Source of the DNA: an uncultured Bacilli bacterium
GTDB taxonomy: Bacteria > Bacillota_I > Bacilli_A > RF39 > UBA660
DNA length: 64,000 bases
Assembly: GCA_934097085.1 (NCBI GenBank)
Contig: CAKONK010000001.1
Location: forward strand, 4,221-68,220
Reading direction: 5' to 3'
Position 1 is the stretch's first letter. Every line of letters begins with the position of its first letter. Shown piece by piece: positions 48,539-64,000 of this stretch. A program made the translations under genes and the position numbers. Under the pieces are notes generated by a model. It searched no databases, was not told the DNA's origin, and saw only the letters and a program-made list of their open reading frames with translations.

Positions 48539-48540
48539 TT

Positions 48541-49221: not shown

Positions 49222-49227
49222 GTAGTC

Positions 49228-49485: not shown

Positions 49486-49500
49486 AATAAAATTAAGCAT

Positions 49501-51272: not shown

Positions 51273-53367
51273 TTTTTACCTGCTCCATTACATAAACTTC
51301 AAAAGTATCTCCCTCTTTGAAGTCATCATATTTTTCTAATGTAATACCACATTCAAAGCCTTTTTTAACTTCTTTAGCTTGATCTTTACCTCTTTGAATT
51401 GAGGAAATCTTTGTATCAATAAGAATCTTTCCATCACGAATAACTCTTACATTTGCATTATTTTTAACTATTCCATCAGTTATATATACACCTGCAATAT
51501 TACCAACTTTAGAAAATTTAAATATTTGTCTTACAGTAGCACTACCAATTACTTTTTCTTCATATTCTGGATCAAGCATACCATTAAGTGCTGCTTCAAC
51601 ATCTTCGACAAGTTTATAAATAATTGTATAACATCTAATTTCAATACCATATTCTTTTGCCATTGCTTTAGCATCCGAAGATGATACAACATTAAATCCT
51701 ATTACGATTGCTTTTGATGCACTAGCAAGAACTATATCACTTTCAGATATTGGTCCTATACCACTGCGGATAACTTTTACTCTTACATCTTTAACTTTAA
51801 TATTTTCAAGAGCACTTTTAACTGCTTCTTCAGAACCTCTTACATCAGCTTTTAAGACAACAGCGACTTCTTTTTGACCTGAATTAACGCTTTCAAATAA
51901 TTCATCTAGTGATAAAGTTTTCTTAACATTACTCTTTTCTTTTTCAATATTTTTTCTTTTTTCTGCAACTTCTTTAGCTTCCTCAATTGTTTCAAAAGCC
52001 ATAAACTTATCACCTGCTTTAGGTGTATCATTAAGTCCTGTTATTTCTACTGGAGTAGATGGTCCAGCCTCAACTATACTTTCTCCACGATCATTTTTCA
52101 TTGTACGAACCTTACCATAAGTTGTTCCTACAACCACTGGATCTCCTAGTCTAAGTGTTCCATTAAGAATAAGGAATGATGATAGTCCTCCGATATTTTT
52201 ATCTAGTTTTTCTTCGATAACAGCCCCTAAAGCATATCTATTTGGATTAGCTTTAAGTTCTTTAACTTCGGCAATTGCAAGAATTGTTTCAAGAAGGTTA
52301 TCAACACCTTCTCCAGTCTTCGCAGAAAGATTAATAAATGGGTATTCTCCTCCCCAACTTTCTGGAGTAATACCATTTTCACTCATTTCAGTATAAACTC
52401 TTTCAATATTTATATTTGGTTTATCAATTTTATTAACCGCTACAATGATTGGTACACCAGCACTTTTAGCATGGTCGATTGCTTCTTTAGTCTGAGGCAT
52501 AACACCATCATCGGCAGCAACAATAATAACTACGATATCAGTTACACTTGCTCCTCTTGCACGCATTTGTGTAAAGGCAGCGTGACCTGGAGTATCAATA
52601 AATGTAATTTTATGACCATCTTTTTCAGTTTGATATGCACCAATTGCTTGCGTAATACCTCCGGCTTCCCCTTCGGCTACTCTAGTGGATCTAATGTAAT
52701 CTAAAAGTGTAGTTTTACCATGGTCTACATGTCCCATTATTGTAACAATTGCCGGTCTTTCTTTTAAATCTTTTTCATCATCAATTACTTCATAATGATC
52801 AAAATCAGCAATATCTTGACTTTCTTTTTTCTTTAAGGTTTTATTGTAATCTAAAGCTACGATTTCAGCATTTTCAAAATCAATAACTTCATTCATAGAT
52901 AGCATTAATCCTAAACTCATAAGTTTTTTAATAATATCATTTAGAGAAACTCCAAGTGCATCGGCAAAAGCTTTAACACTCATTCCATCTTCATATAAAA
53001 CAATATTATCCTCTTTTACATTACTCATTAGTTTGCTTTTGTTTTTATACATTTGTTTTTTTAAGTTTTTGAAATCAGCATTACTGCTATCTTTTTTCTT
53101 AAGTTTTTGTTTGCTATTAGCAACCATATCTTTTTTTACAATATTTTCACTTTGTAATACTTTTTCAACTACATCATCAATTTGGTCTTCTTCTTCATAT
53201 GTTGTTTCTTTATCAGTACTAATTAAATTAATTGTATTATCAATCATAATAATATCATCATCAGATAAAATGCTGTTACCATCTGCTTTAATTCCAAGTT
53301 CACTACATTTTCTTAAAACCTCTGCTACTGATAAATTTACATCTTTTGCATAATCTTTAATATTCAT
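51265..53367 (-). CDS. infB: Translation initiation factor IF-2
   Basis: GHVDHGKTTLLD, DTPGH and NKID G-domain motifs. Confidence 0.97.
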   Translation of the reverse strand: MNIKDYAKDVNLSVAEVLRKCSELGIKADGNSILSDDDIIMIDNTINLISTDKETTYEEEDQIDDVVEKVLQSENIVKKDMVANSKQKLKKKDSSNADFKNLKKQMYKNKSKLMSNVKEDNIVLYEDGMSVKAFADALGVSLNDIIKKLMSLGLMLSMNEVIDFENAEIVALDYNKTLKKKESQDIADFDHYEVIDDEKDLKERPAIVTIMGHVDHGKTTLLDYIRSTRVAEGEAGGITQAIGAYQTEKDGHKITFIDTPGHAAFTQMRARGASVTDIVVIIVAADDGVMPQTKEAIDHAKSAGVPIIVAVNKIDKPNINIERVYTEMSENGITPESWGGEYPFINLSAKTGEGVDNLLETILAIAEVKELKANPNRYALGAVIEEKLDKNIGGLSSFLILNGTLRLGDPVVVGTTYGKVRTMKNDRGESIVEAGPSTPVEITGLNDTPKAGDKFMAFETIEEAKEVAEKRKNIEKEKSNVKKTLSLDELFESVNSGQKEVAVVLKADVRGSEEAVKSALENIKVKDVRVKVIRSGIGPISESDIVLASASKAIVIGFNVVSSSDAKAMAKEYGIEIRCYTIIYKLVEDVEAALNGMLDPEYEEKVIGSATVRQIFKFSKVGNIAGVYITDGIVKNNANVRVIRDGKILIDTKISSIQRGKDQAKEVKKGFECGITLEKYDDFKEGDTFEVYVMEQVKNA

Positions 53368-53394
53368 AAAACCATCCTTTCTTAATTTAATTTT

Positions 53395-53901
53395 TTATCT
53401 ACTTTTTCCCTTTTCTATATATCCAAAATCATATAATAGTGTTTCTAAATCTCTACCCTCATATTTAATAATTTCAATATTTGCATTATTTGCAATTGAT
53501 TTAGAAAGATTTGCATCATATTCACTATTATATACAACCTTTGTTATTCCACTATTAATAATAGAATTCATACAGTCCTTACAAGGAAAAGTATTTACAT
53601 AAATTGTTGCCCCTACTGTAGATATTCCATGTCTTGCAGCAAAAGCAATTGCATTTTGTTCAGCATGAGAAGCAGGACATAGTTCTAAATATTTACCAGA
53701 TGCATAATCACTCATTGCTCTTCTTCTGCATCCACCTAAATCTTCACAATGTTCAACACCTCTTGCTGGTCCATTAAATCCAAAACTAATTGGATTATCA
53801 TCTTTAACAATGACTGCCCCAACTTTTCTTGATAAACAAGTACTTCTTAATGAAGCAATTTGGGAAATAGCCATATAATATTCTTCTTTAGTTGGTCTCA
53901 T
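53395..53901 (-). CDS. dCMP deaminase (ComEB-type cytidine/deoxycytidylate deaminase)
   Basis: Zinc motifs HAEQNAI and PCKDC. Confidence 0.85.
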   Translation of the reverse strand: MRPTKEEYYMAISQIASLRSTCLSRKVGAVIVKDDNPISFGFNGPARGVEHCEDLGGCRRRAMSDYASGKYLELCPASHAEQNAIAFAARHGISTVGATIYVNTFPCKDCMNSIINSGITKVVYNSEYDANLSKSIANNANIEIIKYEGRDLETLLYDFGYIEKGKSR

Positions 53902-54151
53902 TAATAATCCTTTCTAAATTATCATATACTTCATCACTAATGCTTACCCCTAAAGCTTTCTCTAATATTTTAGTCTTTTTTGCTTTATTTATTACTTCTA
54001 TAGATTTTTTTAAGTATGCACCTTTTCCATTAAGTTTACCAGTACTATCATATACCACCTCTCCTAAGGGAGTTCTTACTACTCTTAATAAATCTTTTTT
54101 TTCACATTTTTCATGTGATACAACACAAGTTCTTAAAGGAACTTTTTTCAT
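53888..54151 (-). CDS. ylxR: YlxR/RnpM family RNA-binding protein (DUF448)
   Basis: PLRTCVVSHEKCEKKDLLRVV and GKGAYL motifs, plus position after nusA. Confidence 0.88.
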   Translation of the reverse strand: MKKVPLRTCVVSHEKCEKKDLLRVVRTPLGEVVYDSTGKLNGKGAYLKKSIEVINKAKKTKILEKALGVSISDEVYDNLERIINETN

Positions 54152-55263
54152 TATCTATTACCTTCTTCAGTAATTTCTTTCATTGTTTTAATTTCTAAAT
54201 AGTATTTAGTAAGTCTTGAAGCAAGTCTAATATTACTTCCTTTTTTACCAATTGCTTTACTAAATTCATCATCAGGTACAACTACTAAAGCTTTTCTTTC
54301 TTTTTCATCTAAAATATTAACTATAGCATCTTTTGCAGGAACAATTGCATTTTTAATAAATACAGCTGGATCTTCATCATATAGTACTAAATCTATTTTT
54401 TCATTACCAAGTTCTTTTAAAATGCCTGCTATTCTACTACCTTTTTCTCCTATACAAGAACCAATTGCATCAACTTTTGGATTATTAGATATAAGAGCAA
54501 CTTTACATCTTATACCTGGTTCTCTTACTACTTGGTATATATCAATTGTTCCATTAATAATCTCTGGAATTTCTTGTTCAAATAATCTTCGAACAAAACC
54601 ATAATGTTTTCTAGAAAGCATAATAACTGGTCCTTTAGCTCCTAAAGTAACTTTAGTTAAATATACTTTAATATTTGAACCCATAACAATTTTTTCATCA
54701 GGTATAATTTCACTTTTAGGAAGCATACCACGAGTTCTACCTAAATCAATGTAATAATTTTTTTGGTCTTCCATAGCAACCATACCAATCATTACTTCGC
54801 CTTCTTTATCACTAAACTCATTAATAACACTTTCTTTTTCAGCTTCTCTAATTTTTTGTGTTAATACTTGTTTAGCAGTCCCGGCAGCAACTCTTCCAAA
54901 ATCTTTTGGAGTTACTTCTTTTTCAATAGTATCTCCTACTTTAGCATTAGGATCTATTTTAACAGCATCCTCTAAAAGAATTTGTGCATCAATATTTATC
55001 TCTGGTGGAGTTGTAACAATATTACCTTCTTCATCTTCAGTTTCAGTTCCATAATCAATTTCCGGTACTACTACTAAATAAGAATATACTTTTATATCGC
55101 CACTTTCTCTATCAATTCTTACAATTACATTAGTTTTAGAATTAAAATTCTTTTTATATGCAGTTGTAAGAGCAAGTGTTAAGCCCTCAAAAATAACATC
55201 CTCACTAATATTTTTTTCTTTTGCCACTAATTTAACAGCCTTAATTAATTCATTTGCATTCAT
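54151..55263 (-). CDS. nusA: Transcription termination/antitermination factor NusA
   Basis: N-terminal domain, S1 and two KH domains (DAIGSCIGEKGSRI; AIGKKGSNIRLAS). Confidence 0.96.
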   Translation of the reverse strand: MNANELIKAVKLVAKEKNISEDVIFEGLTLALTTAYKKNFNSKTNVIVRIDRESGDIKVYSYLVVVPEIDYGTETEDEEGNIVTTPPEINIDAQILLEDAVKIDPNAKVGDTIEKEVTPKDFGRVAAGTAKQVLTQKIREAEKESVINEFSDKEGEVMIGMVAMEDQKNYYIDLGRTRGMLPKSEIIPDEKIVMGSNIKVYLTKVTLGAKGPVIMLSRKHYGFVRRLFEQEIPEIINGTIDIYQVVREPGIRCKVALISNNPKVDAIGSCIGEKGSRIAGILKELGNEKIDLVLYDEDPAVFIKNAIVPAKDAIVNILDEKERKALVVVPDDEFSKAIGKKGSNIRLASRLTKYYLEIKTMKEITEEGNR

Positions 55264-55265
55264 CT

Positions 55266-55514
55266 TTAATTACCTCTTTCCTTACTAGATATATCTAAAA
55301 TATAGCTATCATCAATATCACAGTACTTATCCACTATTGGATTAATTATATGAGTAGCAGTAACTATCTCATCAATATCAATTCCTCCAACCTTATCTAG
55401 GATAACCTCTAAAAAGGAATATTTTCCTTTCTTTTTAAAAGATATACTATCTACAAATATATCCATATCCTTAATTGCAATATTAATTTTTTCAGTCAAT
55501 TTACTAAAATCCAA
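55266..55514 (-). CDS. rimP: Ribosome maturation factor RimP, N-terminal domain only (~82 aa)
   Basis: FVDSISFKKKGKYSFLEVILDK.GGIDIDEIVTATHIINPIVD...YILDISS matches the RimP N-domain. The likely start is the TTG at 55514, 8 nt after GAGGG. The track's longer N-terminus covers the leader hairpin. Confidence 0.7.
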   Translation of the reverse strand: MDFSKLTEKINIAIKDMDIFVDSISFKKKGKYSFLEVILDKVGGIDIDEIVTATHIINPIVDKYCDIDDSYILDISSKERGN

Positions 55515-55537
55515 ATATATCACCCTCTTATTAATAA

Positions 55538-55559
55538 AAGTGGGATTGCAGGCCCACTT
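55538..55559 (-). promoter_or_regulatory. Leader stem-loop plus U-tract directly upstream of the rimP RBS (candidate attenuator)
   Basis: 7-bp GC-rich stem aagtggg/cccactt with an 8-nt loop. In the minus sense it is followed by TTTTATTAAT and then the RBS. Confidence 0.4.
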
Positions 55560-55788
55560 CAAATGTCAAACTTATTTTATCATTATTTATTTAATATGTC
55601 TATAAAAAAATATGAAGAAAATAAAAAAAATTTTAAAAAACCTATTTACAAATAAAAAAAATTATAATATAATTTAATGGTTGTTGAAGAAAACAACAAT
55701 TTTGATTAATTATCTAAGTAATTTATAAAAGAGAATCACAATAGTGATTCTTTTTTATTTATTATATAAAAAGAAATAAAAAAAAAAA

Positions 55789-55814
55789 ATCGGCTTCACA
55801 AAGCGAAGCACGAT
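55789..55814 (-). terminator. Conserved hairpin after target-1 (copy 1 of a 34-nt element), here followed by T13
   Basis: atcg-gcttc-acaaagc-gaagc-a-cgat. The 34-mer at 55787-55820 is identical to 59354-59387 except for one loop base. The A13 run at 55777-55789 is a T-run in the minus sense. Confidence 0.65.
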
Positions 55815-55817
55815 TTA

Positions 55818-56945
55818 TTATCCAAGCATTATTTTATATGGATTACCCTCAGAACCATCTCCTGATATAACATATACATTAGATTTTAGATATAAGACTG
55901 GCCTAACTGCATAACCGACATACGCATTGCCGTAGTCGAGCCCGCCAGCGGAGTAGACGTAAACAGGGTAGGAAGCATTAGATGCAGTCATTGTCCATTC
56001 ATAACCTTTTGTAAATAACCAATTATTTTTATAACCATTATTCATTGCATAGCCATAATCACTTGCATACATTAAACCTATCTTTAAAGTAGTACTAGTT
56101 TGGCTTGATTTTTCTTTATCATATTGCGTTTTTCCCACAGTTGATGATGAACCAGTAACCCCAATATTCCAATATACACCATTATATATCATATTATCAT
56201 AGTCTCCACTTGAGGCTATACCATTTTGCGTATAATCACACTTTGCAACTGGTTTTCTTGAACTGGCATAATATGAATAACAGTAGGATGCACAGGCACT
56301 ATCATTTCTACTGTTAATTTGCTCTAGAAAGCATTCATTTAGATTTTTTTGAATTGTACTTCCTACCCAAGTTGAACTAGATGTAGTATTTGCATTATAT
56401 GAAAGGCCTCCAATTGAATCATTTCTTATTATTTTAACAAGACCATTATTATTCCAAGTTGAACAAGTACCATCTGTATTTACTGCTGTACATACTGGTG
56501 TTTTACCAATTATTCTATAAAGCTCTTTATTATACCAAATATAATTATTAGGATTATTTCCTTTATATCTAACTCCATAATCAGATTTATATAAAAGTCC
56601 ATTTCCACTTACTACTCCTGAAGTACTTGTTGTATTAACTACATTAGAAAGAAGTTTAGGATTACTTATAAATGATACATTACAAGAAACATTTCCAGTT
56701 ATATTTTTAATATCTAATTTCCAATTATCTATATCCCATACTCCATCAGCATTATCACAAGTTATATCTACTTGATATAAACCTTTACTAGGAAATGTAT
56801 TAGATACTTTACCATTTACAAGTAATGCAATTGTACTTCCATTATAATTAAATGTTTTTTTAGGTTTATTACTAATTACTAATAAAGTGCATATCATTAT
56901 AACAATTAATGATATACATGTAACAATCTTTTTATTATTTTTCAT
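55818..56945 (-). CDS. DGR target protein 1 (375 aa): N-terminal TM anchor, C-terminal variable module
   Basis: TM segment IVTCISLIVIMICTLLVI. The C-terminal ~150 aa are homologous to target-2 (NNPNNYIWYNKELYRIIG, IGLMYASDYGYA, NNWLFTKGYEWTMTA, AVRPVLYL). VR1 lies at the 3' end. Confidence 0.9.
   Translation of the reverse strand: MKNNKKIVTCISLIVIMICTLLVISNKPKKTFNYNGSTIALLVNGKVSNTFPSKGLYQVDITCDNADGVWDIDNWKLDIKNITGNVSCNVSFISNPKLLSNVVNTTSTSGVVSGNGLLYKSDYGVRYKGNNPNNYIWYNKELYRIIGKTPVCTAVNTDGTCSTWNNNGLVKIIRNDSIGGLSYNANTTSSSTWVGSTIQKNLNECFLEQINSRNDSACASYCYSYYASSRKPVAKCDYTQNGIASSGDYDNMIYNGVYWNIGVTGSSSTVGKTQYDKEKSSQTSTTLKIGLMYASDYGYAMNNGYKNNWLFTKGYEWTMTASNASYPVYVYSAGGLDYGNAYVGYAVRPVLYLKSNVYVISGDGSEGNPYKIMLG
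55905..55975 (-). repeat. DGR variable repeat VR1
   Basis: Aligns with TR 57364-57434. All 14 mismatches are at TR adenines (sense strand). It encodes SYPVYVYSAGGLDYGNAYVGYAV. Confidence 0.9.
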
Positions 56946-57204
56946 TTAATAACCTTCTTTCTAATATATTAATTAAATTTACTTTGAAATAATAATTTAA
57001 ATAATTATTATTTTCATATTCTTTTTTTACTATAATATCTAAATTATCTAATATTATATAATTAATTTCAAACTTATTTAAATTTCTATTTATATAATTA
57101 AATATTATTTTATCTTCATCAAAAGTATAATATTTATTATTTTTAATTATTAATATTAAATAATTTTGATAAATATGTTTTAAAACATTATATCTTTCTT
57201 TCAT
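56935..57204 (-). CDS. Small ORF (89 aa) between TR and target-1, weakly MutS-domain-I-like
   Basis: LILIIKNNKYYTFDEDKIIFNYI loosely resembles the MutS domain I core (F-R-G-FYE-F--DA). There is no Shine-Dalgarno sequence, and it overlaps the target-1 start by 11 nt. Confidence 0.35.
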   Translation of the reverse strand: MKERYNVLKHIYQNYLILIIKNNKYYTFDEDKIIFNYINRNLNKFEINYIILDNLDIIVKKEYENNNYLNYYFKVNLINILERRLLNEK

Positions 57205-57363
57205 ATTGTTTTATTAGATGTCGATAGAAAGAGTACGTATACTCTTTCGTCCATCTATTATCTTTTAAAAGTATAATACTTTTAAGGAAAGTTTATGTTT
57301 CTTATGCTTAACACTTTATAGCCATAACCATAAAACCTAAACCAAACATAAGAAGCTATAAAA
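57205..57363 (-). ncRNA. Structured non-coding segment immediately 3' of TR (probably part of the DGR RNA)
   Basis: Hairpin gaaagagta-cgta-tactctttc (57227-57248; 9 bp, 4-nt loop). Hairpin aaaagta-taa-tactttt (57267-57283). Neither is followed by a U-tract in the sense strand. Confidence 0.45.
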
Positions 57364-57438
57364 AACTGCATAACCGTTATACGCATTGTTGTTGTTGAGC
57401 CCGCCATTGTTGTTGACGTTAACAGGGTTTGAAGAACT
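57364..57438 (-). repeat. DGR template repeat (TR)
   Basis: The sense strand is AGTTCTTCAAACCCTGTTAACGTCAACAACAATGGCGGGCTCAACAACAACAATGCGTATAACGGTTATGCAGTT. In the target reading frame this gives 8 AAC and 2 AAT codons. It lies 30 nt downstream of the RT stop. Confidence 0.9.
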
Positions 57439-57468
57439 GTTTTTCTAAAAAAATTCCCTATATTTATA

Positions 57469-58530
57469 TTAATAGTATCTTTCAATAATGTGCTTTATTT
57501 TATCCTTATTTACAAAATTATAACTATGTAAATAATTTTCTAAAGAATAAAAATATTTTTCAAATGTAATCATATTATTTTGATACCTATAAATACCTTT
57601 CTTAATACCTTTTTTTATATTATTTCTTGCATTTTCACTCAAATTAATAATAGTTTTATTATTAATAATTCTAAAATTATAACCTAAAAAATTAAAACCA
57701 TTTTTTAAATTTACAATATAAGTTTTCTTTTCATTTATTTCTAAATTGTAAGAATGAATAAAATCTATAATTTTATTTTTACATATTTTTAAATAATCTA
57801 AATCATTTGAAAATATTACATAATCATCCATATATGAAAGCATATATTTTAAATGTAAATTATGAATTATATAATGATGTAATTTACATAAATAAAATAT
57901 AGCAAAAAACTGTTGAACTTGTCCTCCCAAAGAAAGTCCTACACCATTTTTATATCTAGGTAATTTTTCATTAACTTCTTTTTCTAATATATCTATTTTA
58001 TCATTAATATAATCATAATTAGTACTATCAATTATTTTACAAACTAAATTATATTCTTCATTAGTTAAAACATTTATTATTAAAGATTTTAAAATATTAT
58101 GATCAATAGAATAAAAATATTTTTTTATATCAATTTTTAAAACATAAATATCTGTATTAAAATGTTTTAACTTTTCAATATCAGAAAGAAGTAATTTAAT
58201 AGCATATGTAAGTCCCATACCTTTCCTTGTTGCAGTAATTTCTTTACATAGATATTTTGAAAGTTTTGGTATTAAAATATATTTTGCTACATAATGATTA
58301 ATAATTTTGTTAATTATACTTTCACTCATAACAACCCTAATTTTAGGCTCTCTAACTAAAAATATATTATAACTACTACCTTGATATAAACCATTTTCTA
58401 AAATATATTTTATATAAACTAAATACTCTATTTTACATTTTTCAAATGCAAGAATTTTCTTTCTATTTTTCACTCCTTTCAATATCTCATTATTATATAT
58501 ATCTAATAAATCACTTATTTTTACTATCAT
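57469..58530 (-). CDS. DGR reverse transcriptase
   Basis: RT motifs IDIKKYFYSIDH, GLSLGGQVQQFFAIFYL and SYMDDYVIFS (YMDD). Size is 353 aa. Confidence 0.92.
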   Translation of the reverse strand: MIVKISDLLDIYNNEILKGVKNRKKILAFEKCKIEYLVYIKYILENGLYQGSSYNIFLVREPKIRVVMSESIINKIINHYVAKYILIPKLSKYLCKEITATRKGMGLTYAIKLLLSDIEKLKHFNTDIYVLKIDIKKYFYSIDHNILKSLIINVLTNEEYNLVCKIIDSTNYDYINDKIDILEKEVNEKLPRYKNGVGLSLGGQVQQFFAIFYLCKLHHYIIHNLHLKYMLSYMDDYVIFSNDLDYLKICKNKIIDFIHSYNLEINEKKTYIVNLKNGFNFLGYNFRIINNKTIINLSENARNNIKKGIKKGIYRYQNNMITFEKYFYSLENYLHSYNFVNKDKIKHIIERYY

Positions 58531-58894
58531 AATCTATCTTATTATCCAACCATTTATTACTCATTCTATTTATTTCAGATAACTTATATGAAACTTTTTT
58601 TAATGAAGTTTCTGCAATATAACCTTTAATAAATAATCTTTCTATAATGTAATCTATAGTATTTATAAGTGAATTTATTTCTACTTTATATGAATTTATA
58701 AATTTATAATTATCTTCATTATTAGTTTTATTTATAGAATATAATAATTCTATTGATAATTCTTTTAACTTATTTTTATAAAAATAATCTTTTTTAGGAA
58801 TATTTTCTATTATCTTATCAAGTATATTCATAAAATCTTTATACTTACTAAGTATTAAAAATTCTTTTGATGATGCATTATTTTCTAAGTTCAT
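58511..58894 (-). CDS. avd: Avd-like accessory variability determinant (four-helix-bundle family)
   Basis: About 127 aa and helical. IPKKDYFYKNKLKELSIELLYSINKTN and LSEINRMSNKWL resemble Avd/23S-IVS family motifs. It overlaps the RT start by 20 nt. The track start at 58900 is TTG; the first ATG is at 58894. Confidence 0.7.
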   Translation of the reverse strand: MNLENNASSKEFLILSKYKDFMNILDKIIENIPKKDYFYKNKLKELSIELLYSINKTNNEDNYKFINSYKVEINSLINTIDYIIERLFIKGYIAETSLKKVSYKLSEINRMSNKWLDNKIDYDSKNK

Positions 58895-59243
58895 TTTCAA
58901 TTAAACCTATTATTTGTTCAAGTTTTTCATCACAGCATTTATTTAAATTGTCAATTAAATAATCTAATTTTTTTCTTTTATCTAAATTTTTTAATGCTAG
59001 ATCTAAATATTTTGGATAATTATTAAGTTTATCAAAATCCTTAATAATAGGATTTTTATCTACCTCAATAATTTGATAAGATATTTTAGCATCTTCCAAA
59101 GTATTTAATACTTTGGATAAACTATTATCAGGAAATCCACATAAACCATCTTTGAGTACTTTATAACCAAAAAGTAAATTCATAATATAAGCATCAGTAT
59201 TTTTACACTGATAAAATTTACCACGATTTTTATAAAATATCAA
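58878..59243 (-). CDS. MutS-domain-I-like small protein (MSL-type DGR accessory ORF)
   Basis: IFYKNRGKFYQCKNTDAYIMNLLFGYKVLKDGLCGFPDNSLSKVLNTLEDAKISYQIIE aligns by eye with the MutS mismatch-binding domain ([17 protein letters not shown]...LL...MAGIP...YL..L...G..V.I.EQ). TTG start with no obvious Shine-Dalgarno sequence. Confidence 0.55.
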   Translation of the reverse strand: MIFYKNRGKFYQCKNTDAYIMNLLFGYKVLKDGLCGFPDNSLSKVLNTLEDAKISYQIIEVDKNPIIKDFDKLNNYPKYLDLALKNLDKRKKLDYLIDNLNKCCDEKLEQIIGLIENELRK

Positions 59244-59250
59244 AAATGAC

Positions 59251-59300
59251 TTTACATTAGTAACCCCCCGGTTTTACATTACCTTTACATGCATTTACAT
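59251..59300 (+). promoter_or_regulatory. Array of four phased TTTACAT direct repeats (array A) between target-2 and the MSL-avd-RT operon
   Basis: Copies start at 59251, 59273, 59284 and 59294 (spacings 22, 11, 10 bp). A C6G2 tract at 59265-59272 lies inside the array. Confidence 0.4.
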
Positions 59301-59355
59301 TTTTAAATAATTTTATTTTTTCCTTCCTTTCTAATTATTTAATTATTTATTTTAA

Positions 59356-59381
59356 ATCGGCTTCACAATGCGAAGCACGAT
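59356..59381 (-). other. Conserved hairpin after target-2 (copy 2 of the 34-nt element)
   Basis: Same stem as 55789-55814, with a single loop difference (acaatgc vs acaaagc). In the sense strand it is followed only by ATTTAAAAT, so it would be a weak terminator at best. Confidence 0.5.
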
Positions 59382-59388
59382 TTATTAT

Positions 59389-61107
59389 TTACATTCCTAA
59401 AGTATATGGACTTGCTATTGAGCCATCACCAGATAATTTGTTAACATTAGATTGTAGATATAAGACTGGCCTAACTGCAAAACCGTGAAACGCACCGTAG
59501 TAGTCGAGCCCGCCATAGTTGTTGACGCTAACAAGGTTTGAAGAACTATTGGCTGTCATTGTCCACTCATAACCTTGACCGAATAGCCAATTATTAACCA
59601 TTTGACTATTAGCACTTGAATAGCCTAAATTCCCTGTGTAACCACTTATAGCATAGCCAAAATCACTTGCATACATAAGTCCTATCGAAGTATTTTCTGA
59701 AGTTTGTTTAATTATCTCTTTGGCATAAAAATTACTTGATGACAAACTATATGAACCAGCAATTCCAGTATTATAATAAACGCTTTCTACCATATTACCA
59801 TAACTATCATTTTCATTAATGCCATTTTGTGAATAATTACATACACCTTGAGTAGTTTGATAAGCATAACAGTATTTATCACAACCATCTTTTTTACCTA
59901 AATAACAAGTATTTAAAAGGCCTTGAATAGTGCTACCAATCCACACTATAGGATTTGATGAACTATAATTTGATTTATTATAAGCGTATGCTCCAATTGG
60001 GTCTGCTTTAATAATCTTTACTCTGTTTTCCCATTTAGTACACTGTGCTTCACCTTGCTTAAATGATGTTCCATTAATAGTAGTATCCTCTGTTATAGGA
60101 GTTACCTCTAAACAAACTGGTACATAACCTATTATTCTCCATAACTCATTATTAAAGGATACATAGTTATTAGGATTATTACCCTGATATCTATATTGCA
60201 GTGTATTATTATCTGTTACTTTTGTTATTACTCCATCTCCTGAAGTACCTTCACCTGCTGTTATAACACTTGATAAAAGTGTACCTGTAGTATTAGTTGT
60301 TTTAGTTAGAGTTGCACTAGCACCATCATTAACTCCATTTTTAATAGATATCATTCTATTAATATTATCCCAAGAAATATTCGAAGAAGTTATACCATTT
60401 AAATTAGATAATGAATAATTACTATTGGGATTATTATATGGTAAATCTGTTACATTTATATTTATTTGATTAATAGCCTCTGTTTGATAACATGTTACAT
60501 TTGTTACATTAAATTTACCAGAATAAGTTTTATTAATTAAATTTGATTGATCAAATGCTAAGTTATAAAATTTTGTATTAATAGTCCAATTATGTACTGA
60601 AGGATTACCTTTTTTAGAATTAGATATTTTAGCATTTTTTACAACAATCATATTTGCAGATGGAAAATCATCTTCACTCATAAATTCATTTTTACCTACT
60701 TCAGGTCCTATTACTTGTAAAGTAAATTCTCTAAAAGTACCTGCTGTTTTAGTGGTATATTTATCAGATGAACTATCATAAGTAAAATTAATATCGTAAG
60801 TACATGTTACTCCCGTTTTAGTGGTATTTGCATCTAAACTTACAGTTAATGTACTTGTATTACTAGCAATATAAGTAGTACTTGCTTCCTCAGTCATATT
60901 GTATGGATCTACAGTTATAGAAAAATTTGTTGTATTAGTATCTAGCACTGCATTATCTATTTTATTTGCATATATATTTACATTCATAATATTATTTGTA
61001 TTTATATCAAATACTCCTAAATATCCAAAAGATATTGCTATAGCAAGTACTAAAGTAACTACTACTGATAATATAATAATTTTCTTTTTTTTCTCTATTT
61101 TATCCAT
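59389..61107 (-). CDS. DGR target protein 2 (572 aa): N-terminal TM anchor, long Thr/Asn-rich ectodomain, C-terminal variable module
   Basis: TM segment IIILSVVVTLVLAIAISFGYL. The C-terminal module is homologous to target-1 (NNPNNYVSFNNELWRIIG, IGLMYASDFGYA, NNWLFGQGYEWTMTA, AVRPVLYL). VR2 lies at the 3' end. Confidence 0.9.
   Translation of the reverse strand: MDKIEKKKKIIILSVVVTLVLAIAISFGYLGVFDINTNNIMNVNIYANKIDNAVLDTNTTNFSITVDPYNMTEEASTTYIASNTSTLTVSLDANTTKTGVTCTYDINFTYDSSSDKYTTKTAGTFREFTLQVIGPEVGKNEFMSEDDFPSANMIVVKNAKISNSKKGNPSVHNWTINTKFYNLAFDQSNLINKTYSGKFNVTNVTCYQTEAINQININVTDLPYNNPNSNYSLSNLNGITSSNISWDNINRMISIKNGVNDGASATLTKTTNTTGTLLSSVITAGEGTSGDGVITKVTDNNTLQYRYQGNNPNNYVSFNNELWRIIGYVPVCLEVTPITEDTTINGTSFKQGEAQCTKWENRVKIIKADPIGAYAYNKSNYSSSNPIVWIGSTIQGLLNTCYLGKKDGCDKYCYAYQTTQGVCNYSQNGINENDSYGNMVESVYYNTGIAGSYSLSSSNFYAKEIIKQTSENTSIGLMYASDFGYAISGYTGNLGYSSANSQMVNNWLFGQGYEWTMTANSSSNLVSVNNYGGLDYYGAFHGFAVRPVLYLQSNVNKLSGDGSIASPYTLGM
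59473..59547 (-). repeat. DGR variable repeat VR2
   Basis: Aligns with TR 57364-57438. There are 11 mismatches, 10 of them at TR adenines (sense strand). It encodes SSSNLVSVNNYGGLDYYGAFHGFAV. Confidence 0.9.
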
Positions 61108-61195
61108 ATCTTTACATTCCTATCTTTACTAATTTATCATACCATAATAAAACTACTTTTCCAAGTAGTTAATCTATAAAAAATAAAAATTTAAG

Positions 61196-61226
61196 ATGAA
61201 AATTAAAAAGGGATAGTTAGTCTACC
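61196..61226 (-). terminator. Rho-independent terminator of ileS
   Basis: In the minus sense: agggtag-actaa-ctatccct followed by TTTTAATTTT. It overlaps the last codons of ileS. Confidence 0.6.
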
Positions 61227-64000
61227 CTTTTTAATTTTATACCCACACTATAATCATTTAATGTTAAATCTTTTTCTATAGTATCATCAAAATTAATTTC
61301 TATAGCAAGAACTTCATTTTTAACATAATCAAGATTATCTTTAATAGAACTTGCAAACTCTTCATCTGCATTAACATCAATAATAATTCTATTATCAATA
61401 TCAAAATTATTTTCCTTTCTAATTGCTTGTACTTTAGAAACAAATTCCCTAGCATTACCCTCTTTTTTAAGTGGCTCTGTAATAACTGCATTAAGTATTA
61501 CAAACTTACCATTATCCATACCAATATCAAAGCCCTCTTTTGCATTATATCTAATATCAACTAAAGATGGATTAATTTCATATGTTTTATCATTAATATC
61601 TAAAGTAATATTTTCACCTTTTTGAATACTTTCAAGTTCTTTATCAGTTAAATTTAATAATTTTTCTTGATAAGCTTTCATGTCTTTACCAAATATTTTA
61701 CCAGCTTCTTTAAAATTAGGTTTTACCTCAAAGTTCATATAAGTATTAATATCGTTTATAAATTTAACCTCTTTAACATTTAATTCCTCTTTGATAAGTG
61801 ATGTTAAATTATCAATAACGCTTTCATATTTACCATCAATTAACACTTCACTAAGTGGTTGTCTTACTTTAATTTTATTTTCTTCTCTAGCGTATCTACC
61901 TATAGAAATAAGATCTCTTACTAAATCCATTTTTTCCTCTAAAGAATGGTCTATTAAGCTTTCATTACAAACTGGATAATCTGCTAAATGAACTGATTTT
62001 TCACTTGTTAAATTAGTATAGATTTCTTCGGAAACAAATGGTGCAATCGGAGCAATTAATTTACATAGTCCACTTAAAACTTCATAAGTAGTTATATAAA
62101 CACTCTTCTTTGAATTATTAAATTCACTTCCCCAGAATCTATTACGATTACGTCTAATATACCAATTTGATAAATCATCTGATACAAATGATGTAATATA
62201 TTTAGTAACTTTATTTAAATCATATTCAGAAAAAGCATTTCTTACATTTCTAACTAAATTATTATATTTTGATAAAAGCCATTTATCAATTTCCTCTCTA
62301 TCTATATAATCTACATTACATTCATTTATATTAATATTATCTACATTAGCATACATTTGAAAGAATGAATATGTATTTTTTAAAGGATTTACAAACTTAG
62401 AATATACCTCTTTTACACCATCTTCATCAAATTTAAGTGGTGTCCATACTGGAGATGCATAAAGCATATACCATCTAATAGAATCTGCTCCGTATTTTTC
62501 AATAATAGCAATTGGGTCAATAATATTACCTGTGGATTTACTCATCTTCTTACCATTTTTATCAAGCATCATATCATTTACTACAACATTTTTAAATGAT
62601 GAAGTTCCACTTATAATAGTACTTATTACAAGTAGTACATAAAACCATCCTCTTGTTTGGTCTACTCCCTCAGCAATAAAATCTGCAGGAAATTGACTTT
62701 CAAAAAGCTTTTTATTTTCAAATGGATAATGATACTGTGCATAAGGCATTGAACCTGAATCAAACCATACATCTAAAACATCTTTAACTCTATGCATTGT
62801 GCCACCACATGAACAAGTCATTGTAATATTATCTACATATGGTCTATGAAGTTCCATATTTTTAATATCAATATCTTTTTCATTTGCTCTAGAATTAAGT
62901 TCCTCTACGCTACCAATTACATCAAAATGATTACATTCATCACATACCCAAATAGGAAGAGGACAACCCCAATATCTATTTCTTGAAATACCCCAATCTA
63001 TCATATTTTCAAGCCAGTTATTAAATCTTTTTTGGCCTACATAATCAGGATACCAATTAATAGCTTTATTAGCCTCAATAATTTTATCTTTATAAGCAGT
63101 TGTTTTTATATACCAAGCTGGTTTTGCATAATAGATAAGTGGACTTTTACATCTCCAACAATGAGGATAATCGTGAACCATTTTTATTTTCTTAAATAAT
63201 TTATCATTTTCCTTTAAATATTTAATAATATCTATCTCAAGGTCTTTATCAGTTACAAGAGTTCCTTTCCAAGGACCAATTTTATATTTACCATCACTAC
63301 CAACACTTTGAACAAATGAAATACCATTTTGAGTACATACTCTATTATCATCAGCACCATACGCAGGAGCAATATGAACGATTCCTGTACCATCTTCAGC
63401 AGTAACATAAGAGTCCGCAACAACAACAAAGGCTTTACCATCAACTTTTGCAAAAGGCATTAATTGTTCATACTCTGTTCCAACTAAATCAGTACCTTTA
63501 AATGATTCAAGAACTTTTACATCGTCTCCTAAAACTTTTCCTACTAAACTTTCACATAAAATGAATTTATAACCCATACTTTCAACTTTTACATAAGTTA
63601 AATTGGGATTTACGCATGCAGCAACATTATCAATTAATGTCCAAGGAGTTGTAGTCCATACAAGCATATATTCATCTTTATCCTTTATTTTGAAAGGAAC
63701 AATAACTGTATTTACGCTATCTTCTTCATAACCTTGACTTACTTCATGTGATGCAAGTTCTGTTCCACATCTAGGACAATACGGAAGCACTTTAGAACCA
63801 TAATAAATAAGTCCTTTTTCATGCATAGTTTTTAAAATCCACCACTCAGATTCAATATAGTCATTACTACATGTAATATAAGGATTTTTAGTGTCAATAA
63901 ATTGCCCCATCATTTGAGTTACTTTATCTACTTCATCAATATTTGTAGCGGTTTCTTTATTACACTCTTTACAGAAATTTTCTACACCAAACTTTTCAAT
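61217..64000 (-). CDS. ileS: Isoleucyl-tRNA synthetase, partial (N-terminus beyond the right edge); probably the long type-2 form
   Basis: KMSKSTGN, DWGISRNRYWGCPLPIW, and CPRCGT / CWRCKS editing and zinc motifs. The reading frame stays open from 63913 to base 64000 (IEKFGVENFCKECNKETATNIDEVDKVTQMM...). Confidence 0.95.
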   Translation of the reverse strand: MEKFGVENFCKECNKETATNIDEVDKVTQMMGQFIDTKNPYITCSNDYIESEWWILKTMHEKGLIYYGSKVLPYCPRCGTELASHEVSQGYEEDSVNTVIVPFKIKDKDEYMLVWTTTPWTLIDNVAACVNPNLTYVKVESMGYKFILCESLVGKVLGDDVKVLESFKGTDLVGTEYEQLMPFAKVDGKAFVVVADSYVTAEDGTGIVHIAPAYGADDNRVCTQNGISFVQSVGSDGKYKIGPWKGTLVTDKDLEIDIIKYLKENDKLFKKIKMVHDYPHCWRCKSPLIYYAKPAWYIKTTAYKDKIIEANKAINWYPDYVGQKRFNNWLENMIDWGISRNRYWGCPLPIWVCDECNHFDVIGSVEELNSRANEKDIDIKNMELHRPYVDNITMTCSCGGTMHRVKDVLDVWFDSGSMPYAQYHYPFENKKLFESQFPADFIAEGVDQTRGWFYVLLVISTIISGTSSFKNVVVNDMMLDKNGKKMSKSTGNIIDPIAIIEKYGADSIRWYMLYASPVWTPLKFDEDGVKEVYSKFVNPLKNTYSFFQMYANVDNININECNVDYIDREEIDKWLLSKYNNLVRNVRNAFSEYDLNKVTKYITSFVSDDLSNWYIRRNRNRFWGSEFNNSKKSVYITTYEVLSGLCKLIAPIAPFVSEEIYTNLTSEKSVHLADYPVCNESLIDHSLEEKMDLVRDLISIGRYAREENKIKVRQPLSEVLIDGKYESVIDNLTSLIKEELNVKEVKFINDINTYMNFEVKPNFKEAGKIFGKDMKAYQEKLLNLTDKELESIQKGENITLDINDKTYEINPSLVDIRYNAKEGFDIGMDNGKFVILNAVITEPLKKEGNAREFVSKVQAIRKENNFDIDNRIIIDVNADEEFASSIKDNLDYVKNEVLAIEINFDDTIEKDLTLNDYSVGIKLKRVD

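What the first reader, a model, noticed from the sequence alone, without database searches (positions are those of the whole stretch)
57364..57438. The TR-VR mismatch pattern is almost purely adenine-specific, and the two VRs have diversified independently
Direct alignment gave these results:
- TR 57364-57434 vs VR1 55905-55975: 14 mismatches in 71 nt, all at plus-strand T, which is A in the coding (minus) sense.
- TR 57364-57438 vs VR2 59473-59547: 11 mismatches in 75 nt, 10 at A positions. The exception is TR G57425 against A59534 on the plus strand.
- Overall, 24 of 25 differences hit the 25 TR adenines, and all four replacement outcomes occur.

In the target reading frame TR reads S S S N P V N V N N N G G L N N N N A Y N G Y A V, with 8 AAC and 2 AAT codons, the classic DGR design. 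VR1 encodes ..SYPVYVYSAGGLDYGNAYVGYAV and VR2 encodes SSSNLVSVNNYGGLDYYGAFHGFAV. The invariant GGL and the G-(Y/F)-A-V scaffold are kept while about 10-12 residues vary. The two VRs differ from each other at most variable sites, which argues for separate homing events. The three repeats are also local GC-rich islands in very AT-rich DNA.
Basis: seen in the sequence. Interest (0 to 1): 0.85.

Follow-up and report, generated by a model that had tools for sequence, protein, structure and literature searches.

The report
Two-target diversity-generating retroelement, gut Bacilli
The repeat is the template of a genuine diversity-generating retroelement that rewrites about ten codons in each of two surface-protein genes of an uncultured human-gut bacterium; it is a clean new member of a well-known kind of system, not a new kind.

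Summary
TR (57364-57441, minus strand) differs from VR1 at 14 of 71 positions, all at template adenines (P=8e-9). It differs from VR2 at 11 of 75 positions, 10 at adenines (P=3e-5). All adenine changes fall in codon positions 1 or 2. The two VRs changed independently.

The repeats lie in a 5.4-kb chromosomal cassette between ileS and rimP-nusA. Its order is target2(VR2), MutS-domain-I-like gene, avd, RT, TR, about 160 nt of structured RNA, orf89, target1(VR1).

Public data support the interpretation:
- In 23 same-contig TR/VR pairs, 46% of TR adenines are substituted, against 4-7% of C, G or T.
- In 120 target1 orthologues, exactly ten positions carry 3.0-3.4 bits of entropy, and these are the AAY codons. 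The mean elsewhere is 0.27 bits.

The targets are membrane-anchored proteins with a DUF6273-like (C-type-lectin-like) domain. The closest named genome is 'Mycoplasma sp. CAG:472'.

One caveat applies. In the window's own strain lineage both VRs are identical in all assemblies examined. The MutS-like gene also looks switched off there, with a shortened poly-G tract and ATG changed to ATA. Past activity is therefore shown, but present activity is not.

Verdict: a known kind of system and a new member of it.

The parts
55783..61193 (-). Whole DGR cassette (5.4 kb). This is the only stretch shared with CAG:472-type strains.
   Evidence: blastn homology to L001, L009 and L103 (92-94% identity) runs to these ends (L011: 55783-61180, 89%). 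The flanks are unrelated.
59389..61107 (-). Target gene 2 (572 aa): N-terminal membrane anchor and a C-terminal DUF6273-like domain.
   Evidence: ORF. Residues 289-572 are 45% identical to target 1 residues 113-375.
59473..59550 (-). VR2 (codons 520-545 of target 2)
59443..59472 (-). VR-specific 3' flank of VR2 (AGGCCAGTCTTATATCT...), an IMH-like candidate
   Evidence: 28/30 identical to the flank of VR1, against 60% for the next 40 nt. It is present after every VR and absent after the TR.
59354..59388 (-). GC-rich hairpin just after the stop codon of target 2
   Evidence: 34/35 identical to the hairpin after target 1. Folds shown. It has no T-run and was not called as a minus-strand terminator.
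58878..59243 (-). orf121, a MutS-domain-I-like (MSL) accessory gene. In this lineage its 5' part is disrupted.
   Evidence: A jackhmmer family is found in more than 50 DGR loci. Family members hit Pfam MutS_I above its threshold, while the window copy reaches only E=0.1. The family profile hits MSH6/MutS domain I.
59264..59269 (-). Poly-G tract (CCCCCC on the plus strand) in the 5' part of the MSL gene
   Evidence: Tract length is 4 to 11 in other strains and is reproducible for the same strain. G6 here breaks the frame of the 146-aa ORF seen in L001.
58511..58900 (-). avd-like accessory gene (127-129 aa)
   Evidence: Pfam bAvd 9.3e-7, NCBIfam DivGenRetAVD 5e-7 and PHROG 'Avd protein of DGR' 5.3e-9. 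The Pfam and NCBIfam hits are below their curated cut-offs.
57469..58530 (-). DGR reverse transcriptase (353 aa, YMDD present)
   Evidence: RVT_1 5.6e-16. PHROG RT 5.5e-49. The best PDB match is 8ub7, E 3.5e-13.
57364..57441 (-). Template repeat (TR): 9 AAC and 2 AAT codons in the target frame. The mutagenised span is 57371-57441.
57205..57363 (-). Structured spacer RNA 3' of the TR (Sp-like)
   Evidence: RNA fold z=-2.96. Nearly invariant among strains. Alignable with the spacers of DGRs whose RT is about 50% identical.
57227..57248 (-). 9-bp stem capped by a UACG tetraloop. An outer helix GAUG/CAUC extends it to 57217-57255.
   Evidence: 8 of 9 pairs show compensatory changes in 17 DGRs. 90.8% of cells are paired against 63% in shuffles, and 0 of 500 shuffles reach the observed value.
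56935..57204 (-). orf89, a conserved small ORF. It directly follows the TR-spacer here and in the RT-TR type relatives, and lies elsewhere in the cassette in TR-RT type relatives. Possibly a degenerate MSL paralogue.
   Evidence: The family is found in all DGR loci with RT identity of 46% or more. hhalign against the MSL family gives probability 57%, E 1e-4.
55818..56945 (-). Target gene 1 (375 aa): membrane anchor, beta-sandwich and a DUF6273-like domain.
   Evidence: ORF. AF2 model with pLDDT 79 and pTM 0.81. Foldseek matches.
55905..55982 (-). VR1 (codons 322-347 of target 1). Clean TR homology covers 55905-55975.
55875..55904 (-). VR-specific 3' flank of VR1 (IMH-like candidate)
55787..55821 (-). 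GC-rich hairpin plus T-run after target 1. It looks like a terminator and marks the cassette end.

Best explanation
The element is a diversity-generating retroelement (DGR) on the chromosome of an uncultured, low-GC human-gut Bacilli bacterium. It serves two paralogous surface-protein genes.

Shown:
- The gene set and order on the minus strand: target2/VR2, MutS-like gene, avd, RT, TR, structured spacer RNA, orf89, target1/VR1.
- The adenine-specific TR-to-VR differences.
- The independence of the two VRs.
- The restriction of natural variation to the AAY codons.
- TR polymorphisms at non-A sites that reappear in the cognate VRs.

Inferred by analogy with the Bordetella phage BPP-1 DGR: an RNA spanning the TR and its 3' spacer binds RT and Avd through stem-loops, including the 9-bp UACG-capped one. 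It is reverse transcribed with random misincorporation opposite adenines. The cDNA then replaces the VR. Targeting would use the VR-specific 30-nt 3' flank and possibly the conserved hairpin after the stop codon.

The outcome is up to about 1e13-1e14 variants of a ligand-binding face on a membrane-anchored DUF6273 (C-type-lectin-like) domain. In the window's own lineage the element appears quiescent at present.
For: TR/VR statistics:
- 14 of 14 and 10 of 11 mismatches fall at TR adenines (P=8e-9 and 3e-5). All are at codon positions 1 or 2.

Reverse transcriptase:
- Pfam RVT_1 5.6e-16 and PHROG RT 5.5e-49.
- The best PDB hit is 8ub7_A (328 aa), E 3.5e-13. Its I181, G182, Q187, R74 and F66 match the residues named for bRT in 10.1101/2023.10.23.563531. 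They align to L201, G202, Q207, R65 and F57 here.

Avd: weak but concordant hits in three libraries.

Relatives: of the 76 RT relatives in GTDB genomes, 50 loci carry A-biased (T-biased in 2) TR/VR pairs, including 20 of the 25 with RT identity of 46% or more.

Population data:
- 11 distinct TRs and 37 distinct VR alleles among 44 copies.
- In 23 same-contig pairs, 46% of TR adenines are substituted against 4-7% of other bases, Fisher P=3e-87.
- In the per-site profile, every TR adenine from 57371 to 57430 varies. A57367 and A57438 never do.
- The non-A sites that vary (57412, 57406, 57400) are exactly those polymorphic among TRs.
- In 120 target1 orthologues, entropy is 3.0-3.4 bits at ten positions and averages 0.27 bits elsewhere.

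Spacer RNA: the UACG hairpin shows 8 of 9 compensatory pairs. It fits the published description of 9-bp tetraloop-capped stem-loops downstream of TR in Avd-containing DGRs.

Target fold:
- The AF2 model has pLDDT 79.
- It matches the T. ramosa IgA peptidase chain (9qa6), E 3.5e-8. The authors assign that protein's N-terminal domain to DUF6273.
- It also matches phage 'DUF6273 domain-containing' proteins, E 7e-5 to 2e-3.
- DUF6273 is described as a C-type-lectin-like DGR target domain with the VR at its C-terminus.
Against: No direct evidence of current activity exists.
- VR1 and VR2 are identical in seven assemblies that are 99.87-100% identical to the window over 7-20 kb.
- The exact target1 protein is on 22 contigs.
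- The MutS-like gene has lost its ATG and is out of frame in this lineage.

The Pfam and NCBIfam Avd hits are below their curated thresholds. The hairpin after each VR lies about 85-90 nt from the VR end, outside the 4-34 bp range reported for phage DGRs, and may simply be a terminator. VR2 carries one non-A difference.
Confidence: 0.94

Rival explanations
1. The DGR is real but is now a quiescent or decaying element in this lineage. On this reading the A-specific pattern is a historical record and no diversification occurs today. A possible cause is that the MutS-like accessory gene is off or defective.
For: - VR1 and VR2 are identical across seven near-identical assemblies from several samples, while the backbone has accumulated 0 to 23 substitutions.
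- The exact target1 protein is on 22 contigs.
- In this lineage the MSL gene has ATG changed to ATA and a G6 tract that breaks the 146-aa frame.
- VR2 has a non-A change, and the 5' end of VR1 has drifted from the TR.
- Related strains have lost the whole RT-TR core yet kept both targets (L100, L104, L106).
Against: - RT, avd, TR and the spacer are intact. They are identical or nearly so to those of strains with other VR alleles.
- Assemblies report only the consensus allele.
- Most of the samples seem to come from one human population, so strain sharing could explain the identity.
- Whether MSL is needed at all is unknown. Most DGRs lack it.
Confidence: 0.35
2. The three repeats are ordinary paralogous coding sequence, with differences that come from drift or gene conversion.
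For: The two target genes are true paralogues, 45% identical over about 280 aa.
Against: - The TR lies in an intergenic stretch directly after the RT gene, not in a paralogue.
- 24 of 25 differences fall at one template base. All are non-synonymous codon position 1 or 2 changes in AAY codons.
- The same rule holds in 23 further TR/VR pairs, P=3e-87.
Confidence: 0.01
3. The pattern is an assembly or sequencing artefact, for example a chimeric contig or collapsed repeats.
For: None specific. The window comes from an uncultured organism, so an assembly origin is likely.
Against: The same 20-kb arrangement, with the same TR and VRs, recurs in independent assemblies from different samples and assemblers. 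Related cassettes occur in dozens of other contigs.
Confidence: 0.01

Closest known systems
Bordetella phage BPP-1 DGR (mtd-avd-TR-brt), the prototype
   Same: - An RT related to bRT, with the R74, I181, G182 and Q187 equivalents kept.
- An Avd-like protein.
- Adenine-specific TR-to-VR transfer.
- An AAY-rich TR.
- A VR at the 3' end of a C-type-lectin-fold receptor gene.
- A structured spacer RNA 3' of the TR that includes a UNCG-capped stem-loop.
   Different: - The order is avd-RT-TR rather than avd-TR-RT.
- The TR is 78 nt rather than 134 nt.
- There are two targets flanking the core.
- It is chromosomal rather than phage-borne.
- The tetraloop stem-loop lies about 115 nt 3' of the TR rather than directly after it.
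- No GC-rich (G/C)14 element is present.
- The post-VR hairpin lies about 88 nt away rather than 4 nt.
- Extra MutS-like genes are present.
Architecture B2 (avd-RT-TR) and architecture D (MSL-containing) DGRs of Wu et al. 2018 (PMC5758913), including the Legionella DGR with an MSL gene
   Same: An avd-RT-TR core. A small MutS-like accessory gene together with avd, and no HRDC gene.
   Different: A second, shorter conserved ORF (orf89) follows the TR-spacer and may be a degenerate MSL paralogue. The MSL gene carries a poly-G tract that varies in length.
Gut phage and prophage DGRs with DUF6273 targets (phages nd4 and nd12, PMC10743442; Faecalibacterium prophages, PMC11792537)
   Same: The target domain is of DUF6273 / C-type-lectin-like type with the VR at its C-terminal end. 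Two targets per DGR occur. Phage nd12 carries the closest phage RT.
   Different: - The RT is only about 32% identical to that of nd12.
- No phage record contains a target1 homologue at E<=1e-5.
- The targets here are membrane-anchored cellular proteins lying between housekeeping genes.
N-terminal DUF6273 domain of Thomasclavelia ramosa IgA peptidase (PDB 9qa6; PMC12402451)
   Same: It is the best solved structural match to the target1 model (Foldseek E 3.5e-8, 308 aligned columns).
   Different: It is not DGR-diversified and is fused to an M64 peptidase. TM-score (TMq) is only 0.40 and sequence identity 17%. Its function is not established.

Membership tests
Diversity-generating retroelement (DGR) | A reverse transcriptase of the DGR clade encoded next to the template repeat | tested here: met
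   The RT is 57469-58530 and the TR starts 28 nt after its stop codon. RVT_1 5.6e-16. The best PDB relative is the 328-aa RT 8ub7, E 3.5e-13, with the catalytic and fidelity residues aligned. Of its 76 relatives, 50 loci carry A-biased (T-biased in 2) TR/VR pairs. No DGR-specific RT profile or phylogeny was run.
Diversity-generating retroelement (DGR) | A TR/VR pair whose differences fall almost only at TR adenines | tested here: met
   14 of 14 and 10 of 11 mismatches are at A, P=8e-9 and 3e-5. In the population, 46% of A is substituted against 4-7% of other bases, P=3e-87.
Diversity-generating retroelement (DGR) | The VR lies in the 3' part of a protein-coding target, the TR is non-coding, and the design is AAY-rich | tested here: met
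   VR1 covers codons 322-347 of 375 and VR2 codons 520-545 of 572. The TR lies between the RT gene and orf89. It has 9 AAC and 2 AAT codons.
Diversity-generating retroelement (DGR) | Accessory variability determinant (Avd) | tested here: inconclusive
   The 129-aa ORF directly upstream of the RT gene, overlapping it, hits bAvd (29.8 bits, cut-off 40), DivGenRetAVD (30 bits, cut-off 80) and the PHROG Avd family (5.3e-9). The hits are concordant, but the Pfam and NCBIfam scores are below their curated cut-offs. There is no PDB sequence hit.
Diversity-generating retroelement (DGR) | Structured RNA flanking the TR (spacer with protein-binding stem-loops) | tested here: met
   A 9-bp UACG-capped stem lies 3' of the TR. 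8 of 9 pairs are compensatory across 17 DGRs, and 0 of 500 shuffles reach the observed value. It fits the published description. The position differs from BPP-1, and binding was not tested.
Diversity-generating retroelement (DGR) | IMH/IMH* asymmetry and a hairpin or cruciform 3' of the VR | tested here: inconclusive
   The VR-specific 30-nt flank is 93% identical between the two targets and differs from the TR flank. A GC-rich hairpin follows every target in this clade. It lies about 88 nt from the VR and has no GRNA loop, against the reported 4-34 bp spacing and 4-nt loop.
Diversity-generating retroelement (DGR) | RT-dependent mutagenic retrohoming observed | not testable with these tools
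   There is only indirect population evidence. Within the window's own lineage the VRs are invariant.
DUF6273 / C-type-lectin-fold DGR target proteins | A match to Pfam PF19789 above its gathering score | tested here: not met
   Target1 scores 21.2 bits against a cut-off of 23.5, E 2.8e-4, on residues 301-355. Target2 has no hit. Some orthologues and homologues carry a precomputed PF19789 hit.
DUF6273 / C-type-lectin-fold DGR target proteins | The fold matches DUF6273 domains, with the VR at the C-terminal end of the domain | tested here: met
   The AF2 model has pLDDT 79. Foldseek matches 9qa6 (E 3.5e-8) and several phage DUF6273 proteins (E 7e-5 to 2e-3). Weak hits to DUF1566 (Lcl) and to C-type lectins follow. 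The VR residues lie in three short strands at 326-346 near the C-terminus.
MSL (MutS-like) DGR accessory proteins (Wu et al. 2018) | A small protein with MutS domain I similarity, encoded in a DGR that also has avd | tested here: inconclusive
   Window orf121 alone reaches only E=0.1 against MutS_I. Its jackhmmer family members score 42.1, 38.3 and 26.5 bits, above the cut-off of 20.6. The family profile hits MSH6/MutS domain I at E 0.011-0.3. The window copy lacks the ATG start and is frame-broken.

The most novel reading that the evidence does not exclude
The MutS-domain-I-like accessory gene of this DGR clade may be a contingency gene. A poly-G tract of 4 to 11 G in its 5' coding part would switch the 146-aa protein on and off by slippage, and so gate retrohoming.

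On this reading the window lineage is locked OFF (G6 plus ATG changed to ATA). That would explain why its two VRs are frozen, while lineages with other tract lengths carry different VR alleles. A second, degenerate MutS-like ORF (orf89), which follows the TR-spacer here, would be a further dedicated component.

If true, this would be a built-in on/off switch for targeted hypermutation. It would also give a handle on what MutS-like proteins do in cDNA integration.
Probability: 0.15. Interest if true: 0.65.

Novelty: new member of a known kind. Interest (0 to 1): 0.33.

Why it matters
The locus is a very clean natural example of a DGR. It has a short 78-nt template, two independently diversified surface receptors and a large public allele series: 37 DNA alleles and more than 120 protein clusters. 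These define the mutagenised span to the nucleotide.

That makes it a useful reference for DGR annotation in reduced-genome gut Bacilli, and for studying what such bacteria bind with a hypervariable lectin-like domain.

It does not change what is known about DGRs. The leads that go beyond the textbook are all side observations that need experiments:
- the variable poly-G tract in the MutS-like gene;
- the conserved orf89;
- presence or absence of the RT-TR core between the two targets;
- the different genomic locations of the 5.4-kb cassette.

Tried and rejected
- Rfam at gathering thresholds and ARAGORN found nothing in the window.
- The first AlphaFold job used a shallow alignment of orthologues 86-96% identical plus target2. 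It failed with pLDDT 35. A second job with 132 more diverse sequences was needed.
- RNAalifold on the 183-column spacer alignment recovered only 4 pairs because indels put the stems out of register. I therefore re-aligned the hairpin anchored on its loop.
- Sequence searches of PDB with target2 and with the target-family profile gave no hit. Avd gave no meaningful PDB hit.
- The sigma-70 promoter scan is uninformative in this AT-rich DNA: 61 hits against 54 expected.
- tblastn of the target1 domain against phage records gave no match. This, with the housekeeping flanks, led me to reject a prophage origin.
- I considered a non-standard genetic code because of the 'Mycoplasma' label and the truncated-looking IleRS. 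I rejected it because IleRS simply runs off the window end (1030 aa in the identical contigs L111/L112) and it and PolA (848 aa) are read as uninterrupted ORFs under code 11.
- I looked for a function for the DUF6273 domain of the IgA peptidase, but the paper assigns none.
- A literature search for poly-G or phase-variable control of a DGR found nothing relevant.
Full report
**1. The observation**

The repeat finder returns a three-copy family at 55905-55982, 57364-57441 and 59473-59550. All comparisons below are in coding (minus) sense.
- TR 57364-57434 vs VR1: 14 differences in 71 nt, all at TR adenines.
- TR 57364-57438 vs VR2: 11 differences in 75 nt, 10 at adenines. The exception is C>T (CCT>CTT), which is plus-strand G57425 against A59534.
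- Given 24 or 25 adenines in the compared stretch, the hypergeometric probabilities are 8.2e-9 and 3.4e-5.

In the target frame the TR reads N S S S N P V N V N N N G G L N N N N A Y N G Y A V, with 9 AAC and 2 AAT codons.

The two VRs behave independently. Of 24 shared adenine sites, 14 changed in VR1, 10 in VR2 and 5 in both (5.8 expected). Only 2 of the 5 changed to the same base.

The repeats are GC islands: 42%, 53% and 46% GC against 26% for the window.

The only refinements are that the TR is best drawn as 57364-57441 and that the mutagenised span is 57371-57441.

**2. What surrounds it**

All genes here are on the minus strand. The order is:

| Feature | Coordinates |
|---|---|
| ileS (runs off the window end) | 61217 onward |
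| target2, 572 aa | 59389-61107 |
| orf121 | 58878-59243 |
| avd-like ORF | 58511-58900 |
| reverse transcriptase | 57469-58530 |
| TR | 57364-57441 |
| non-coding spacer, about 160 nt | 57205-57363 |
| orf89 | 56935-57204 |
| target1, 375 aa | 55818-56945 |
| rimP, nusA, then infB | 55562 downward |

The rest of the window encodes LigA, a UvrD/PcrA helicase, PPDK and PolA. This is a bacterial chromosome, not a phage.

Evidence for the RT:
- It hits RVT_1 (5.6e-16) and a PHROG RT family (5.5e-49).
- Its best solved relative is the 328-aa RT of entry 8ub7 (E 3.5e-13).
- In that alignment the chain's F66, R74, I181, G182 and Q187 are the residues named for the Bordetella phage bRT active site in 10.1101/2023.10.23.563531. 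They pair with F57, R65, L201, G202 and Q207 here.

The avd-like ORF gets concordant hits in three libraries. The Pfam and NCBIfam hits are below their curated cut-offs.

**3. Host**

The closest genome record is 'Mycoplasma sp. CAG:472' (RT 97% identical). Next come MAGs labelled Bacilli, Bacillales or Mollicutes from human, rabbit and ruminant guts. NCBI files CAG:472 under Mycoplasma. However, IleRS (1030 aa in the identical contigs L111/L112) and PolA (848 aa) are read as uninterrupted ORFs with code 11, so TGA is a stop. From my own knowledge such 'CAG' Mollicutes-like gut genomes are placed in Bacilli order RF39 by GTDB. I did not test that.

**4. Evidence from elsewhere**

I scanned metagenome contigs with a degenerate VR/TR pattern, fetched contigs encoding close RT relatives, and scanned GTDB genomes with the RT protein.

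Across these loci there are 11 distinct TRs and 37 distinct VR alleles among 44 VR copies. Every VR is followed by AGGCCAGTCTTATATCT. Every TR is followed by TTTTA(T/G)AGCTTCTTATG.

In 23 distinct TR/VR pairs taken from the same contig, 250 of 541 TR adenines (46%) are substituted. The figures for C, G and T are 4.5%, 7.1% and 3.9%. Fisher P=3e-87.

The site-by-site profile shows three things:
- Every TR adenine from 57371 to 57430 varies, in 27-78% of alleles.
- A57367 (the GCA codon) and A57438 (the AGT codon) never vary.
- The three non-adenine sites that vary often (57412, 57406, 57400) are exactly the sites that are polymorphic among TRs. This is what TR-to-VR information flow predicts.

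At protein level, 120 database clusters of target1 orthologues (85-96% identical) have 3.0-3.4 bits of entropy and 12-14 residue types at positions 326, 329, 331, 332, 333, 337, 338, 339, 340 and 343. These are the AAY codons. The mean elsewhere is 0.27 bits.

In 50 of the 76 RT-relative loci in genomes I found a TR/VR pair with adenine-biased mismatches (thymine-biased in 2).

**5. The RNA next to the TR**

The spacer 3' of the TR folds better than shuffles, z=-2.96. It is almost invariant among strains whose coding sequences differ by several percent.

A 9-bp stem capped by UACG (window 27-48 of 572xx, that is 57227-57248) lies about 90-120 nt 3' of the TR. With one exception (L029, whose homologous stem carries a UUUA loop) it is present in the DGR loci with RT identity of 46% or more in which a TR was located, whether the TR lies after or before the RT gene.
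- On a loop-anchored alignment of 17 elements, 8 of 9 pairs show compensatory changes.
- 90.8% of cells are paired against 63% in shuffles, and 0 of 500 shuffles reach the observed value.
- The slid controls fall to 35-57% paired.
- An outer helix also co-varies by eye: GAUG/CAUC here, UAUAG/CUAUA or GAAG/CUUC elsewhere.

Handa et al. report that 207 of 278 Avd-containing DGRs have stem-loops downstream of TR, most often of 9 bp and capped by GNRA or UNCG tetraloops. In BPP-1 that stem-loop binds the Avd pentamer. The element here fits that description. It sits at the 3' end of the spacer rather than directly after the TR, so I cannot say which protein it binds.

**6. The targets**

Target1 residues 113-375 and target2 residues 289-572 are 45% identical. 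Both start with a hydrophobic helix, so I infer a membrane anchor or signal.
- Pfam gives only a sub-threshold DUF6273 hit on target1 residues 301-355. Some orthologues carry the hit.
- With a diverse alignment AlphaFold gave pLDDT 79 and pTM 0.81.
- Foldseek's only strong PDB match is the T. ramosa IgA peptidase chain (9qa6, E 3.5e-8). The authors call that protein's N-terminal domain DUF6273.
- The strongest BFVD matches are dominated by phage 'DUF6273 domain-containing' proteins, with DUF1566 and C-type lectins further down.
- Two papers describe DUF6273 as a C-type-lectin-like DGR target domain with the VR at its C-terminal end.

The VR residues fall in three short strands (326-330, 336-338, 343-346) with pLDDT 82-88.

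The theoretical repertoire is 15^10 x 16 = 9e12 for VR1 and 15^11 x 16 = 1.4e14 for VR2.

**7. Possible target-recognition elements**

Between the two targets, the 30 nt directly 3' of the VR are 93% identical. The next 40 nt are 60% identical and the domain upstream is 73% identical. The 35-nt hairpin after the stop codon is 34/35 identical.

GC-rich hairpins follow the targets of the 11 more distant relatives examined, except L032, and some lack a T-run. In BPP-1 an IMH and a hairpin 4 bp after the VR are required for homing, and spacings of 4-34 bp are reported. Here the spacing is about 88 nt and the hairpin after target1 also looks like a terminator. I regard the flank as a good IMH-like candidate and the hairpin as undecided.

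**8. Accessory genes**

orf121 belongs to a family present in more than 50 of the fetched DGR loci.
- Several members hit Pfam MutS_I above threshold (42.1, 38.3 and 26.5 bits). The window copy reaches only E=0.1.
- The family profile finds MSH6 and MutS domain I in PDB at E 0.011-0.3.
- This is the 'MSL' accessory class of Wu et al. 2018, found with avd and without HRDC.

orf89 is conserved in all relatives with RT identity of 46% or more. It lies directly after the TR-spacer here and in the RT-TR type relatives, but elsewhere in the cassette in TR-RT type relatives. A profile comparison with the MSL family gives 57% probability, E 1e-4, with the central GFP segment missing. It is possibly a degenerate paralogue, but this is not established.

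**9. Is it active now?**

Looking up the window's exact NusA protein returned seven assemblies that are 99.87-100% identical to the window over 7-20 kb. Their TR, and whichever of VR1 and VR2 the contig covers, are identical to the window's, although the backbones differ by up to 23 substitutions. The exact target1 protein is on 22 contigs. Most sample names point to one human population, so strain sharing is possible, and assemblies show only the consensus. Still, there is no sign of recent change.

In addition, the MSL gene of this lineage lacks the ATG that in other strains follows a strong RBS (ATG changed to ATA). Its poly-G tract has 6 G, which breaks the 146-aa frame seen in L001.

I therefore keep 'real but currently quiescent' as a live sub-hypothesis, at about one in three.

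**10. Side observations**

*The poly-G tract.* It is the only G/C run of 6 or more in the window.
- It has 4 to 11 G in different strains.
- The same strain gives the same length in independent assemblies.
- Only about a quarter of lineages are in frame.
- L089 and L090 are 99.88% identical over 1.7 kb and carry the same VR2 allele, yet they differ by one G.

This looks like slipped-strand phase variation. The tract could instead lie in an untranslated leader.

*Loss of the core.* In L100, L104 and L106 target2 is followed directly by target1, and the whole MSL-avd-RT-TR-orf89 core (window 56956-59342) is absent.

*Location of the cassette.* Homology to CAG:472-type strains is confined to 55783-61193, and those strains share different flanks. 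Strains L114 and L119 have the same NusA protein but no cassette upstream of rimP. The cassette, or its surroundings, has therefore moved. No integrase or transposase lies inside it.

*A second TR-like copy.* L005 (RT 83% identical) has a second TR-like copy with both flanks.

*Codon-length differences.* Some VRs differ from their own TR by one codon in the AAC repeats.

**11. Comparison with known systems, and verdict**

The system works like the BPP-1 DGR and belongs to the avd-RT-TR and MSL-containing architectures already catalogued. Its targets are of the DUF6273 type known from gut phage DGRs. The nearest phage RT is only 32% identical (phage nd12), and no phage record holds a target1 homologue.

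It is a new member of a known kind. What is least expected is the possible phase-variable MutS-like gene, which needs read-level and experimental tests.

Noticed in passing
window 59264-59269 (plus-strand CCCCCC) and the ATG>ATA change about 45 nt upstream in coding sense (around 59312-59314): A poly-G tract lies in the 5' part of the MutS-like accessory gene. It has 6 G here and 4 to 11 G in other strains, and is in frame only with 8 or 11. The near-identical contigs L089 and L090 differ by one G. The window lineage has also lost the start codon. This may be a phase-variation switch.
   Followed up: partly
L100:5717-8729, L106:688-3716, L104: In some strains target2 is followed directly by target1. 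The whole MSL-avd-RT-TR-spacer-orf89 core (window 56956-59342) is missing, yet both VRs still look diversified. The breakpoints lie just after the target2 hairpin and at the target1 ribosome-binding site.
   Followed up: partly
window 55783 and 61193 (cassette ends); L001, L009, L103, L011, L114, L119: The 5.4-kb cassette is 89-94% identical to that of CAG:472-type strains, but homology stops sharply at both ends and the flanks are unrelated. Strains with the same NusA protein (L114, L119) have no cassette upstream of rimP. No integrase or transposase lies within the cassette.
   Followed up: partly
L111-L118, L120-L124 compared with window 44151-64000: Seven assemblies that are 99.87-100% identical to the window carry the same TR and the same VR1/VR2 wherever covered. 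Twenty-two contigs encode the exact target1 protein. There is no VR change within this strain lineage.
   Followed up: yes
window 56935-57204 (orf89): This small ORF directly follows the TR-spacer here and is conserved in all DGRs with RT identity of 46% or more. It has a weak profile similarity to the MutS-like family (hhalign probability 57%). Its function is unknown.
   Followed up: partly
L005:2152-2278: A related DGR (RT 83% identical) has a second TR-like copy, with both the upstream and downstream spacer flanks conserved, located after another target-like gene. Its MSL gene is split into two ORFs.
   Followed up: no
L001:4980-5056, L002:3316-3394: Some VRs are one codon shorter than their own TR within the AAC/AAT repeats. 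This suggests slippage during cDNA synthesis, or a later change in TR length.
   Followed up: no
window 55787-55821 and 59354-59388: A 35-nt hairpin element after each target stop codon is 34/35 identical between the two targets, although the coding sequence just upstream is only 60% identical. GC-rich hairpins follow the targets of nearly all the distant relatives examined as well.
   Followed up: partly
window 1634-6274 and 493-1620 (minus strand): A 1546-aa protein combines a papain-like peptidase, Listeria-Bacteroides repeats and a dockerin domain. Next to it lies a 375-aa protein with a cadherin-like domain. They are probably surface proteins and are unrelated to the DGR as far as was checked.
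   Followed up: no
window 57469-58530: The RT gene is only 17% GC, far below even the window mean of 26%. The TR that follows it directly is 42% GC.
   Followed up: no
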